From: Escherichia coli O127:H6 str. E2348/69
GTDB taxonomy: Bacteria; Pseudomonadota; Gammaproteobacteria; Enterobacterales; Enterobacteriaceae
Direction: 5' to 3' (one strand)
Assembly: GCF_000026545.1 (NCBI RefSeq)
Contig: NC_011601.1
DNA length: 64,000 bases
Shown: in pieces, positions 42,546 to 44,817 of the stretch
How the letters are laid out: every line of letters begins with the position of its first letter
How positions within the stretch are numbered: the stretch's first letter is position 1
Position numbers and translations under genes: made by a program
The notes under the pieces: generated by a model
The model's input: only the letters and a program-made list of their open reading frames with translations
Told to the model about the DNA's origin: nothing
Databases searched by the model: none

Positions 42546-42854
42546 CTACGATAACCGCGCATTTAACATGGCTACCTGTTCGTCGTTCATGTCATCAATC
42601 CACATACCGTAAATTTCATACACCATCTGCGCAGTTTCATGCCCCATCTGGCTGGCTATAAATGCCGGGTTCGCTCCTGCCGTCAACAGCCAGCAGGCAA
42701 AAGTATGTCGCGTATGGTACGGATTACGGCGGCGAATACCAGCACGTTTTACTGCTGCATTCCATCTCGCTCCCAAATAGTCGTAGTGAAATCTGATGGG
42801 AAAGCCTTGCTTAGCATGCTGGTGTTGCGCTACCCGTACAGGATGCGGTAACAC
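42546..42854 (-). pseudogene. intR: Tyrosine-recombinase (phage integrase) 3' fragment
   Basis: About 100 codons of integrase C-terminal catalytic region (HTRHTFACWLL ... VYEIYGMW); N-terminal three quarters missing. Confidence 0.7.
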
Positions 42855-43561
42855 AGGAAGAAATTAGAACAGAAACTGTGGCGGACATTGTGCATTCGTT
42901 GCCAGGCGGAGAAATAGAACGCTACAACAGGTGCAGAATATAATTTTTCGCAAGTGCCAGAATAGCGATATTATGCAGTGTTTTTTAGTTTTCTATCAGG
43001 GGATATTTTGTGAAACTTTTCGGTGAATAAAATAATTCTCTGTAATAAATGATGAGTATGGTCGGTAGTTATATTTGCGCATGGAAATATTACATTGGAT
43101 ATGAATGTATTTCAAATGAAAGAGCCATAACGCCCGAATGGAGTTAGGGATTCATTACGCATCTAATCTAAAGAATAAGAAAAATACTTAATTCATTGTG
43201 GGTGGTGATGATATCTTGATATGTGAAAATGGTTCTCTTAAAAAGATGTAACTAGCTTATTACTTATCCATAGCACAAGAAATGGTCCTGTATCTGCGTT
43301 GCCATGAAATAAGATAGGCCTAAATGTAATAAAGAGTTGCATGGCAAAATTACTAAAGTTCACAATAAAAAAGAATTAAGTTTTTTGTTTGGGTATTTTT
43401 TTAGTGTATTGTTTTGAAATGTTCTACGCTGCTCTAACCTTCAGTTTGAAGAGGGCTTGAATCGTGATGTCAGTTTGATTGACAGAATTTTATTAATAAT
43501 GTTTACGTTTGAATGTGAAATATGTTTAACTATGCCTTGTTGTTAATCACAGGGACTGACT

Positions 43562-43741
43562 ATGAGAAAAATACTGGTGTATTTATGTATTAGCATATGG
43601 ATTGTTATATCATGCGTGCCTATCATATTAACTAGCGAGTATTTAACAGAGGCGAGTATAATGGCATTGATGTTTGGTCATGCCAATGCACTATGTATTG
43701 GGGTTTTTATTTCTATTATTTATATAGAATGCTGGAGGTAA
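43562..43741 (+). CDS. Hypothetical small membrane protein (59 aa)
   Basis: ATG-initiated ORF with two hydrophobic segments in the AT-rich islet; no recognisable SD. Confidence 0.25.
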   Translation: MRKILVYLCISIWIVISCVPIILTSEYLTEASIMALMFGHANALCIGVFISIIYIECWR

Positions 43742-44149
43742 ATAGTGTGAACAGCATTAGTTTGATGATTTTATACTGAACTAAAGGGGGAAAGAGGCAA
43801 CGAAAAAAGACCTCCACCAGGTACGAATCTGAGGCGGGCAGATGGAGGTCGATATCTACACGATTAAATTGATAAGTAAAAGCCCCATCAGGGGTTGATT
43901 TGTTCGAGTCTAATTTAAAGTAATTTCAACGATTTGGCAGAATTTCTTAGAGTTAATGATTTTCAAGTTTTCGATTACCAGGAAAAAGGCTGGGAGCTGA
44001 TAAAATAGTCATCTGCATTCCTTAAATTGTGTAAGGGTGAAAGGATAAAGTTCAATTTAAAGGCGGTACAATATTAGCACCATCTTATATATGTAATGAT
44101 TGATTTGCCTCTTTATTCTACTGTTGAGATTATTGTTTCCGAAAATTGA

Positions 44150-44755
44150 TTATTATCAGCGCGAAAAGAAATGCTACAGCAAATAAGAGGACGATTGTCG
44201 GCGCTGGGGCTCTGTCGAGAAAATATAATAACCATACGCCTGATATTGTTATTGATATCGTTACGGCGATAAGTAATGCCTTATGAAAGCGACGCGTGGT
44301 GAGGACAGCAATAGACCCTGGAGCTGTTAATAGTATATAGACAGAATAATTCCGACTGCTTTTAATGTGGCAAAAATGGTAGGCGATACCATGCAGAGTA
44401 AACTGTAATGTAATAATGATATCTGTAATCCGCTGACTTGTGCCTGTTGATAGTCAAGACAAAAATTCCTGAAAAAACGATACCTATAATGGTATCTTTC
44501 TTTATGATGCTATTATCTTTCAGATAGCCAGTTGCAATTGCACAAGACAGTCCTACAATAAATGCACCAATTCCCAGCGGCATACCTATAATCCAGGCTA
44601 GAACTATGCCAGGAAACATTGCGTGGTTCATTGCATCTCCTATTAGCGCCCAGTCTTTTAATACCAGAAAAACTGATAATAATGCACAGGGAACGATATT
44701 ATAATAGCGATTATCAATGCATAATTCATAAATTTAAATTGTAATGATTAGAGGG
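44150..44755 (-). pseudogene. Degenerate ABC-transporter permease-like gene (multiple frame breaks)
   Basis: Minus-strand hydrophobic fragments in several frames, including the 89-aa ORF 44362-44631; reminiscent of metal ABC permeases. Confidence 0.35.
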
Positions 44756-44817
44756 TAAAATGTCAGCACATTTGCGAAATGAATCAAAAAGCCCGCAGCA
44801 ATGTGCGGGCGTTAGTG

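What the first reader, a model, noticed from the sequence alone, without database searches (positions are those of the whole stretch)
42546..44780. Prophage scar at the Rac site: integrase 3' fragment plus AT-rich islet with decayed permease-like gene
Where K-12 carries the 23-kb Rac prophage between ttcA and uspF, only the last roughly 100 codons of a tyrosine integrase remain, followed by about 1.9 kb of AT-rich sequence. The islet contains fragments of a membrane permease in several frames and one small AT-rich ORF (43562-43741). This looks like an internally deleted prophage or a decaying islet, and leftover att sites, toxin-antitoxin remnants or small RNAs could persist in it.
Basis: partly seen in the sequence, partly recalled or inferred. 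Interest (0 to 1): 0.5.

Follow-up and report, generated by a model that had tools for sequence, protein, structure and literature searches.

The report
Decayed Rac-like prophage scar at ttcA
This 2.25-kb stretch is the immobile, mostly dead remnant of a Rac-like lambdoid prophage that about a fifth of E. coli genomes share; it is ordinary in kind, but one tiny membrane-protein gene in it still looks preserved.

Summary
The window is E. coli E2348/69 (100% match). Between ttcA and uspF, where K-12 carries Rac, lies a 2.25-kb remnant (42495-44745).

In order, it holds:
- the Rac-type attL core and the phage-supplied first codons of ttcA
- the last 77 codons of intR (about 97% identical to K-12)
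- short fragments of ydaW (DUF1627) and lygF (Ren-like)
- AT-rich DNA with an intact 59-codon gene for a two-helix membrane protein
- the 3' third of a hok toxin gene, with a stop codon
- a frameshifted, internally deleted sitD-like permease

This order matches a lambdoid prophage map. attR, ttcC and about 104 bp of host DNA are deleted, so the element cannot excise.

The same structure, at 97-100% identity, is in 1044 of 5426 complete E. coli genomes. The named ones are phylogroup B2 strains. No intact ancestor was found.

Most of the islet varies at the local neutral rate. Two blocks are nearly invariant: the 59-codon gene, and the int'/ydaW' block just upstream of ttcA.

This is a known kind of feature. 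The scar does explain a published puzzle: CFT073 has a Rac-type TtcA N-terminus without carrying Rac.

The parts
42445..42470 (.). 26-bp Rac att core (attL), inside ttcA codons 9-17. It is the only copy in the window.
   Evidence: The core was derived by comparing K-12 attL and attR. The exact match at 42445-42470 is the only match, allowing up to 3 mismatches, in 64 kb.
42471..42545 (-). Phage-supplied first 8 codons of ttcA (42471-42494, giving the Rac-type N-terminus MQENQQIT), plus the 51 bp between the ttcA start and the int stop.
   Evidence: The layout matches the K-12 Rac attL side, at 97.7% identity over 41501-42777. The empty-site strain SMS-3-5 has the other N-terminus, MSQNQEIS. 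Liu et al. 2015 describe the four-residue difference.
42546..42777 (-). intR 3' fragment: the last 77 codons of a Rac-type tyrosine integrase. It is a pseudogene.
   Evidence: 96.8% identical to K-12 intR over 42496-42777, with homology stopping at 42777. RefSeq annotates it as 'tyrosine-type recombinase, missing N-terminus'. It gives weak tyrosine-recombinase C-terminal matches in NCBIfam.
42783..42904 (+). Internal fragment of ydaW (DUF1627), a gene next to the replication genes of Rac-like phages.
   Evidence: 82-87% nucleotide identity to ydaW of Rac-SA53 and other Rac-like phages. It matches phrog_11856 and phrog_630. RefSeq annotates it as a DUF1627 pseudogene.
42896..43027 (+). 3' end fragment of lygF (Ren-like exclusion protein), the gene after ydaW in Rac-like phages.
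   Evidence: 72-75% nucleotide identity to the lygF 3' end in Rac-SA53, PhiR42_1 and vB_EcoS-640R1. Matches phrog_142, Ren-like exclusion protein, E 4e-7. About 500 bp between the ydaW and lygF pieces is deleted relative to Rac-SA53.
43028..43561 (.). AT-rich DNA with no detectable homologue. It varies among B2 genomes at or above the neutral rate.
   Evidence: No hit in phages, plasmids or other E. coli DNA beyond the same islet. No PHROG hit for its ORF fragments. 31 of 529 sites are variable among 5 genomes.
43562..43741 (+). ORF59: an intact 59-codon gene for a small, very hydrophobic protein read as two transmembrane helices. It is the only apparently preserved gene of the remnant.
   Evidence: Full-length homologues of the same length, 41-44% identical, occur in lambdoid prophages. 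dN/dS is about 0.2 against the phage type. 1 of 180 sites is variable, against 4-4.6% in the rest of the islet. 1017 of 1044 genomes are at least 99% identical over 183 bp. Hydropathy profile. Sources call it only 'hypothetical' or 'membrane protein'.
43796..43886 (+). hok' : the 3' third of a Hok/Gef type I toxin gene (codons about 25-51) with an in-frame TGA, plus its 3' hairpin. It may begin at about 43766.
   Evidence: 78.8% nucleotide identity to hok genes of vB_EcoS-640R1 and PhiR42_1. The alignment shows about 245-290 bp deleted, covering the leader, the sok region and the start of hok. tblastn aligns TKKDLHQVRI*GGQMEVDIYT to Hok residues 25-45. This is the only part of 43010-44132 that matches elsewhere in E. 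coli, at hokD/Hok-Gef genes.
43887..44132 (.). AT-rich DNA downstream of sitD', with no detectable homologue.
   Evidence: No hits. 7 of 242 sites are variable over 43891-44132.
44133..44745 (-). sitD' : pseudogene of a SitD/YfeD-type (Pfam ABC-3) metal ABC-transporter permease. It covers residues about 8-272 in three frames and has an internal deletion of about 48 codons. sitABC is absent.
   Evidence: tblastn with phage SitD gives residues 25-102 (76% identity), 151-200 (72%) and 202-272 (62%) in frames -1, -3 and -2. RefSeq annotates it as a frameshifted 'metal ABC transporter permease'. Nucleotide identity to sitD of lambdoid phages and plasmids is 67-68%. The closest intact proteins are only about 55-59% identical. 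The top hit, P0028, is the same locus.
44746..44817 (.). Conserved chromosomal DNA to the right of the scar. It holds the uspF terminator (44791-44810, minus strand) and, at 44746-44775, one end of an older integrase relic.
   Evidence: Homology to the empty site and to K-12 resumes at 44746. Terminator. The older relic is shown.

Best explanation
This is the fossil of a Rac-like lambdoid prophage that integrated into the 5' end of ttcA in an ancestor of the lineage now represented by B2-type strains. At least five or six deletions then reduced it to 2.25 kb.

What is shown:
- The left end is a normal Rac attL: att core, phage-supplied ttcA start, int 3' end.
- The surviving pieces lie in lambdoid prophage order: int, ydaW, lygF, ORF59, hok, then sitD at the attR-proximal b-region end.
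- The right-hand deletion removed sitABC, attR, ttcC and about 104 bp of the original DNA upstream of ttcA.
- With no integrase, no excisionase and only one att site, the element cannot excise. ttcA is therefore locked to its phage-type N-terminus and to phage-derived upstream DNA.

What is inferred:
- Most of the remnant is decaying neutrally. It varies at about the local four-fold-degenerate-site rate, with G/C sites changing faster than A/T sites.
- ORF59 is still a working gene for a small two-helix membrane protein. In intact prophages it always sits about 262 nt upstream of hok. Here it was kept while the toxin next to it was destroyed.
- The almost invariant int'/ydaW' block (42495-42907) is conserved because it now carries the signals that express ttcA. 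This is the weakest step.
For: Identity of the window and the state of the site:
- The window is 100% identical to E2348/69, and RefSeq already marks three pseudogenes here.
- Window 41501-42777 matches K-12 ttcA plus the intR 3' end at 97.7%, and 44746 onward matches K-12 DNA to the right of ttcC at 98.3%. K-12 attR, ttcC and about 104 bp have no counterpart in the window.
- The junctions were mapped against the empty site of SMS-3-5.
- The att core is present once only, and no att-like direct repeat flanks the islet.

Phage homologies and their order:
- ydaW and lygF.
- ORF59.
- hok.
- sitD. In lambdoid phages sitABCD lies after the tail-fibre genes, which is the attR-proximal end of a prophage.

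Distribution:
- 1044 of 5426 complete genomes carry the islet at 97.3-100% identity, with the same pseudogene annotation in every locus inspected. These include Nissle 1917, ST131, LF82, APEC IMT5155, ATCC 25922, 536 and clone D.

Decay and constraint:
- Four-fold-degenerate sites of the neighbouring genes are 4.6% variable. The bulk of the islet is 4.0% variable, with G/C sites at 6.6% and A/T sites at 2.5%.
- ORF59 has 1 variable site in 180. Against the rest of the islet, Fisher P = 0.003-0.008.
- The left block has 2 variable sites in 410. Fisher P = 4e-6 to 4e-5.
- The longest invariant runs, 343 bp and 213 bp, coincide with these two blocks.
- 1017 of 1044 genomes are at least 99% identical over ORF59. 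1043 genomes are at least 99% identical over 42700-42904.
- ORF59 versus its phage homologue gives dN/dS of about 0.2, with equal length.
- A hok gene lies 261-263 nt downstream of the ORF59 homologue in 71 of 73 prophage loci.

Literature:
- Liu et al. 2015 reported CFT073 as an unexplained exception, with a Rac-type TtcA N-terminus but no Rac at ttcA. This scar accounts for that.
Against: - No intact or intermediate ancestor was found in E. coli complete genomes, phages, plasmids or the protein collections. The single-prophage history is therefore reconstructed from gene order alone.
- About 780 bp (43028-43561 and 43887-44132) has no homologue at all.
- Similarity to known Rac-like phages falls steeply from left to right: int 97%, ydaW 82-87%, lygF 72-75%, ORF59 59% at the nucleotide level. 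GC also drops at 42905. Two separate acquisitions would fit this pattern as well.
- The neutral baseline is uneven. Four-fold sites vary from 1.1% to 10% between neighbouring genes. Against the lowest values (uspF, ompN and dbpA, about 1.6%) the left block is only marginally cold, and ORF59 is not significantly cold.
- No convincing promoter for ttcA or for ORF59 was found, and there are no expression data.
- ORF59 has no Pfam, NCBIfam, PHROG or PADLOC assignment.
- Phylogroup membership was taken from my knowledge of the named strains. It was not computed.
Confidence: 0.85

Rival explanations
1. The remnant has two origins. The GC-normal left part (attL, int', ydaW') comes from a Rac-like prophage. 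The AT-rich right part (lygF' to sitD') comes from a different prophage or islet that sat at the same hotspot, in tandem or earlier. Deletions then fused the two.
For: - There is a sharp change at about 42905 in GC (48% versus 35%), in polymorphism (0.5% versus 4%) and in similarity to known Rac-like phages.
- The hotspot was used more than once. An older integrase relic lies in the 'empty' intergenic DNA.
Against: - The ydaW' and lygF' fragments abut in the same order and orientation as in Rac-SA53. They straddle the proposed boundary.
- Lambdoid phages are normally mosaic and carry AT-rich accessory genes.
- No second att core or second integrase piece lies inside the islet.
Confidence: 0.12
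2. The remnant is a maintained functional islet, kept because it encodes an active toxin-antitoxin pair, a small regulatory RNA or a metal transporter.
For: - It is retained in all 1044 carrier genomes with the same structure.
- It contains two nearly invariant blocks.
Against: - hok lacks its start, its membrane helix, its leader and its sok region, and carries a stop codon.
- sitD is frameshifted, internally deleted and without sitABC.
- Rfam finds nothing in the islet at E up to 1. MicC, farther right, is the only real hit.
- The conserved left block has no unusual RNA folding (z = 0.10).
- Most of the islet varies at the neutral rate.
Confidence: 0.03

Closest known systems
Cryptic prophage Rac of E. 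coli K-12, with the related CP-933R and Sp10 of O157:H7 and phage Rac-SA53
   Same: - Same integration site in the 5' end of ttcA.
- Same 26-bp att core.
- Same phage-supplied TtcA N-terminus.
- intR 3' end 97% identical.
- ydaW and lygF homologues present in the same order.
   Different: - Only 2.25 kb remains, against 23 kb in K-12 and 52 kb in Rac-SA53.
- No xis, recET, kilR, racR, sieB or structural genes.
- attR and ttcC are deleted together with host DNA, so it cannot excise. K-12 Rac still can.
- It carries ORF59, hok and sitD pieces that K-12 Rac lacks.
'Grounded' or degraded prophage remnants in general (reviewed in PMC6379469)
   Same: - Loss of integrase, att site and lytic genes through deletion.
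- Survival of a few accessory genes.
- Fixation within a lineage.
   Different: Nothing in kind. The specifics here are the lineage-wide fixation in 1044 genomes and the deletion that runs into host DNA.
hok/sok type I toxin-antitoxin loci, such as hokD (relF) of the Qin prophage
   Same: The 3' 65-90 nt of the gene and its 3' hairpin are recognisably hok, at 76-79% nucleotide identity.
   Different: There is no start codon, no transmembrane part, no mok or sok region and no promoter, and there is an in-frame stop. It is a relic and not a working locus.
sitABCD (Mn/Fe ABC transporter) carried as cargo by lambdoid phages and ColV-type plasmids
   Same: SitD-family permease (Pfam ABC-3), lying at the attR-proximal end as in Lambda_2E9-type phages.
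   Different: - Only sitD survives, and it is broken.
- It is a divergent, AT-rich allele: 67-68% nucleotide identity and 62-76% amino-acid identity per segment to the common E. coli sitD.
- No close intact relative was found.

Membership tests
Rac-like prophage integrated at ttcA | Lies between ttcA and uspF, with the 26-bp att core in the ttcA 5' end and a phage-type TtcA N-terminus. | tested here: met
   Core at 42445-42470. Layout and sequence match the K-12 attL side at 97.7%. The N-terminus is MQENQQIT, against MSQNQEIS at the empty site.
Rac-like prophage integrated at ttcA | An intR-type tyrosine integrase next to attL. | tested here: inconclusive
   Only the last 77 codons remain, 96.8% identical to K-12 intR. 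Ancestry is clear, but the gene is not intact.
Rac-like prophage integrated at ttcA | A second att site (attR) with the displaced ttcA 5' end (ttcC). | tested here: not met
   There is no second core within 3 mismatches in 64 kb. K-12 attR, ttcC and about 104 bp have no counterpart.
Rac-like prophage integrated at ttcA | Rac early-region genes: xis, recET, kilR, sieB, racR, ydaS-V. | tested here: not met
   blastn and tblastx of the islet against the whole K-12 Rac region match only the int 3' end and the flanks. ydaW and lygF pieces match other Rac-like phages.
Excision-competent prophage | Intact integrase, excisionase and two att sites. | tested here: not met
   Integrase truncated, no xis, one att core.
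hok/sok type I toxin-antitoxin | An intact hok ORF of about 50 codons with an N-terminal membrane helix. | tested here: not met
   Only residues about 25-45 align, with TGA at the Arg33 position. The 5' part is deleted.
hok/sok type I toxin-antitoxin | A leader with mok and the antisense sok RNA. | tested here: not met
   The 245-290 bp that hold them in the phage homologues are absent. There is no Rfam hit.
SitABCD / ABC-3 metal transporter | Homology to the SitD permease (PF00950). | tested here: met
   tblastn E 5e-38 and lower, in three segments. NCBIfam metal-permease models match below their cut-offs. Relatives carry PF00950.
SitABCD / ABC-3 metal transporter | An uninterrupted permease ORF with the partner genes sitA, sitB and sitC. 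| tested here: not met
   Three reading frames, about 48 codons deleted, the first 7 or so codons and sitABC missing.
ORF59 small membrane protein family of lambdoid prophages (unnamed) | A 59-codon ORF with conserved W13, S17-C18, P20-I-I, F38-G39, N42-A-L, G47-V-F, E56 and W58-R59. | tested here: met
   Alignment A1. Same length and stop context. 158 confirmed homologues in IMG/VR.
ORF59 small membrane protein family of lambdoid prophages (unnamed) | A hok gene about 262 nt downstream. | tested here: inconclusive
   This holds in 71 of 73 prophage loci. Here a hok remnant follows after 55 nt, because the intervening DNA is deleted.

The most novel reading that the evidence does not exclude
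ORF59 is a domesticated phage gene. It encodes a two-helix small membrane protein that in intact prophages is always paired with hok. On this reading it has been kept under purifying selection in every genome carrying the scar, after the neighbouring toxin was destroyed. It would act either as a modulator of, or protection against, Hok-type membrane toxins, or as an exclusion factor against incoming phages. The int'/ydaW' fragment, in turn, would have been taken over as the expression signal for ttcA.
Probability: 0.15. Interest if true: 0.5.

Novelty: new member of a known kind. Interest (0 to 1): 0.22.

Why it matters
- The scar is a clean, datable example of prophage decay fixed in a major pathogenic E. 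coli lineage.
- It explains why CFT073-type strains have a Rac-type TtcA N-terminus without Rac. In these strains the tRNA-thiolation gene ttcA depends permanently on phage-derived upstream DNA.
- It points to an unstudied small membrane protein family that travels with hok in lambdoid prophages, and that is the only gene-like part of the scar still conserved.
- None of this changes how prophage remnants are understood.

Tried and rejected
- Att repeats: the repeat search over 42200-45000 gave only short, chance-like pairs. The att-core search found one copy.
- Small RNAs: Rfam at E up to 1 found only MicC (46751-46871) and a sub-threshold leader hit, both outside the islet. There are no tRNA genes.
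- RNA structure in the conserved left block: z = 0.10, no signal.
- Promoters: only weak consensus matches. Reading the minus strand upstream of ttcA by eye gave no convincing -35/-10 pair.
- Intact ancestor:
  - Megablast and blastn against 5426 E. coli genomes, 50,697 phage records and 72,556 plasmids found only the same scar plus generic hok, sitD, ydaW and lygF hits.
  - The best protein hit to the rebuilt SitD' turned out to be the same locus with a different frameshift pattern.
- ORF59 function: there were no significant matches in Pfam, NCBIfam or PHROGs, only sub-threshold hits at E ≥ 0.05, and no match at all in PADLOC. A full HMMER scan of 1.84 billion representatives found only the two E. 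coli and Shigella clades.
- The 102-codon int' ORF as a real gene: rejected as the default reading. It has no ribosome-binding site, 25 of its codons are out-of-context DNA, and RefSeq calls it a pseudogene. Its invariance means it is not excluded.
- Literature: no paper describing this scar was found. The E2348/69 genome paper and a K-12 transcription-start paper were not available.
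Full report
**What the window is.** The region 42400-44900 is 100% identical to the E. coli E2348/69 chromosome. The local gene order is dbpA (40057-41430, +), ttcA (41559-42494, -), the islet, uspF (44818-45252, -), ompN, MicC and ydbK/nifJ. In K-12 the 23-kb Rac prophage lies between the same ttcA and uspF genes. RefSeq already marks three pseudogenes in the E2348/69 islet: a tyrosine recombinase lacking its N-terminus, a DUF1627 fragment and a frameshifted metal ABC-transporter permease.

**Checking the observation.** All the described features are present.
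- GC falls from about 50% to 30-40% between about 42900 and 44700.
- The 102-codon ORF at 42546-42854 ends in an integrase C-terminus. Homology to intR stops at 42777, so only 77 codons are integrase.
- Permease pieces lie in three minus-strand frames.
- The ORF at 43562-43741 is intact.

**Boundaries and att sites.**
- Left side. Against K-12, window 41501-42777 aligns at 97.7% to ttcA plus the Rac attL side and the intR 3' end.
- Right side. Window 44746 onward aligns at 98.3% to the DNA right of ttcC.
- Comparing K-12 attL and attR gives a 26-bp common core, TTGTTCAGGTTGTATTGTTCTTTCTT. It occurs once in the 64-kb window, at 42445-42470 inside ttcA, with no second copy within three mismatches.
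- The window's TtcA N-terminus is the Rac type, MQENQQIT. The empty-site strain SMS-3-5 has MSQNQEIS. This is the four-residue difference described by Liu et al. 2015.
- On the right, attR, the 51-bp ttcC and about 104 bp of the original DNA upstream of ttcA are missing. The junction is at 44745|44746, uncertain by a few bases because of possible microhomology.
- The decay was therefore not purely internal.

**Anatomy of the islet, left to right.**
1. 42546-42777 (-): intR, last 77 codons.
2. 42783-42904 (+): an internal piece of ydaW (DUF1627), 82-87% identical to Rac-like phages.
3. 42896-43027 (+): the 3' end of lygF, a Ren-like exclusion protein (phrog_142), 72-75% identical. About 500 bp between the ydaW and lygF pieces is deleted relative to Rac-SA53.
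4. 43028-43561: AT-rich DNA with no homologue anywhere searched.
5. 43562-43741 (+): ORF59.
6. 43796-43886 (+): the 3' third of a hok gene. It is 78.8% identical at the nucleotide level to hok of vB_EcoS-640R1 and PhiR42_1. Its translation, TKKDLHQVRI*GGQMEVDIYT, aligns to Hok residues 25-45. The leader, the sok region and the start of the gene are deleted.
7. 43887-44132: more DNA with no homologue.
8. 44133-44745 (-): a SitD-like permease. It covers residues about 8-272 in three frames, with about 48 codons deleted internally. The first 7 or so codons and sitABC are gone.

In lambdoid phages such as Lambda_2E9, sitABCD lies after the tail-fibre genes, which is the attR-proximal end of a prophage. 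The order int, ydaW, lygF, ORF59, hok, sitD is therefore exactly that of a lambdoid prophage integrated at ttcA, reduced by at least five or six deletions.

**Distribution.**
- The islet (42778-44745) is present at 97.3-100% identity and at least 80% coverage in 1044 of 5426 complete E. coli genomes, once per genome.
- Carriers include Nissle 1917, ST131, LF82, APEC IMT5155, ATCC 25922, 536, clone D and PMV-1. To my knowledge these are all phylogroup B2 strains. I did not compute phylogroups.
- Every locus inspected has the same three pseudogenes and the same junctions.
- Other genomes either have ttcA and uspF adjacent or carry an intR-bearing element.
- No less-degraded version was found in E. 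coli genomes, phages, plasmids or the protein collections. The best protein match to the rebuilt SitD' is the same locus.
- The scar therefore predates the divergence of these lineages.

**A published puzzle explained.** Liu et al. 2015 sorted TtcA N-termini into a Rac-bearing type and a Rac-free type. They noted CFT073 as the exception, having the Rac type without a Rac-like prophage at ttcA. The scar accounts for this. In these strains attL survives and attR is deleted, so the phage-type ttcA 5' end is fixed.

**Neutral decay with two cold blocks.** I aligned E2348/69, ST131, Nissle, LF82 and IMT5155 over 16 kb.
- Four-fold-degenerate sites of dbpA, ttcA, uspF, ompN and ydbK are 4.6% variable (58 of 1255).
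- The bulk of the islet is 4.0% variable (66 of 1659). Its G/C sites are 6.6% variable and its A/T sites 2.5%, as expected for unconstrained decay towards AT.
- Two blocks stand out:
  - ORF59 has 1 variable site in 180, a V6M change.
  - 42495-42904 has 2 variable sites in 410.
- In an eight-genome set, the longest invariant runs are 343 bp (42565-42907) and 213 bp (43578-43790). Fisher tests against the rest of the islet give P = 4e-6 and P = 0.003.
- Across all carriers, 1017 of 1044 genomes are at least 99% identical to E2348/69 over ORF59. 1043 are at least 99% identical over 42700-42904. The islet as a whole is 97.3-98.2% identical.
- Caveat. Four-fold diversity ranges from 1.1% to 10% between neighbouring genes, probably because of recombination imports. 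Against the lowest values, the left block is only marginally cold and ORF59 is not significantly so. The comparison within the islet is the cleaner one for ORF59. For the left block it is confounded by the change in base composition.

**ORF59.**
- The sequence is MRKILVYLCISIWIVISCVPIILTSEYLTEASIMALMFGHANALCIGVFISIIYIECWR. It is strongly hydrophobic at both ends. I read it as a two-helix membrane hairpin.
- It has full-length, equal-length homologues, 41-44% identical, in Rac-like and other lambdoid prophages. There the annotators often called an opposite-strand ORF instead.
- 158 homologues were confirmed in IMG/VR. In 71 of 73 loci with enough flanking DNA, a hok gene starts 261-263 nt downstream.
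- dN/dS against the phage type is about 0.2, with saturated synonymous sites.
- A full HMMER scan of 1.84 billion representative proteins found only these two clades. Sources name them 'hypothetical' or 'membrane protein' in E. coli and Shigella.
- No Pfam, NCBIfam, PHROG or PADLOC family matches.
- It is very likely a real gene. Whether it is expressed from the scar is untested. The DNA just upstream varies and has no clear promoter.

**The left block.** ttcA lost its native upstream DNA, so its expression must come from phage-derived sequence. That is the simplest reason for 42495-42907 to be conserved. I found no convincing promoter and no unusual RNA folding, so this remains an inference. 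A promoter-like site on the minus strand at 44766-44738 spans the right junction, but it is only a consensus match.

**An older layer.** The 'empty' ttcA-uspF intergenic DNA of SMS-3-5, and the K-12 DNA right of ttcC, encode KCADIFPSNPYHTRHSFYIRFLMLG on the minus strand. This aligns to IntR residues 345-369, with 13 of 25 residues identical, E 1e-5 in that small search space, and none of 200 shuffles reaching the score. A 15-nt exact match to intR is included. The hotspot had therefore already been occupied and had decayed before Rac and before this scar. The right junction of the scar falls inside that older relic.

**Verdict.** This is a real feature, correctly read by the first stage: a degraded, immobile Rac-like prophage remnant. 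It is ordinary in kind and already annotated as pseudogenes. The added value is the exact anatomy, the loss of attR together with host DNA, the fixation across the whole lineage, the dead hok piece, the explanation of the CFT073 TtcA exception, and one small gene that still looks conserved.

Noticed in passing
L002 1596-1771 (SMS-3-5); L003 about 26091-26141 (K-12); window 44746-44775: The 'empty' ttcA-uspF intergenic DNA itself carries a relic of an IntR-like integrase, about 75 nt long. It encodes NPYHTRHSF... aligned to IntR residues 345-369 and includes a 15-nt exact match to intR. The hotspot was therefore occupied and decayed at least once before Rac and before this scar.
   Followed up: partly
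window 42495-42907: The int'/ydaW' pseudogene block is almost invariant among carrier genomes: 2 of 410 sites vary, and 1043 genomes are at least 99% identical over 42700-42904. The adjacent AT-rich DNA varies at about 4%. The cause is unexplained. It may be ttcA expression signals, but no promoter or RNA structure was found.
   Followed up: partly
L007 5001-5177; L006 5001-5177; L022-L100: The ORF59 homologue in lambdoid phages is often left unannotated, with an opposite-strand ORF called instead (labelled 'hornerin' or hypothetical). It forms a fixed module with hok, which starts 261-263 nt downstream in 71 of 73 loci.
   Followed up: partly
window 44738-44766 (minus strand): A 10-of-12 sigma-70-like match (CTGACA, 17 nt, TACAAT) spans the scar's right junction and points into the dead sitD'. 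It is a consensus match only.
   Followed up: no
plasmid records NZ_CP141085.1 (385 kb) and CP054253.1 (252 kb): Two records labelled as plasmids carry the whole islet at about 98% identity. They are probably chromosomal pieces or chimeric assemblies rather than real plasmid copies.
   Followed up: no
protein P0006 (87 aa, one 12.6-kb contig): A predicted protein joins the integrase C-terminus to ORF59 at ...YEIYGMW|IVISC.... The two lie on opposite strands in the window, so this is an inversion or an assembly chimera in a single genome.
   Followed up: no
window 41616-42211 (ttcA): Four-fold sites of ttcA are 10% variable among five carrier genomes. The variants cluster by strain, with an IMT5155 run at 41630-41760 and an E2348/69 run at 41846-42211. 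This suggests recombination imports into ttcA.
   Followed up: no
H67 (strain DEF2) and H163 (strain AVS0543): In single genomes the scar has gained a further insertion: ISEc40 within sitD' in one, and IS1 in the other. Decay is continuing.
   Followed up: no
window 46751-46871: The MicC small RNA gene lies between ompN and ydbK, as in K-12 (Rfam 121 bits).
   Followed up: no
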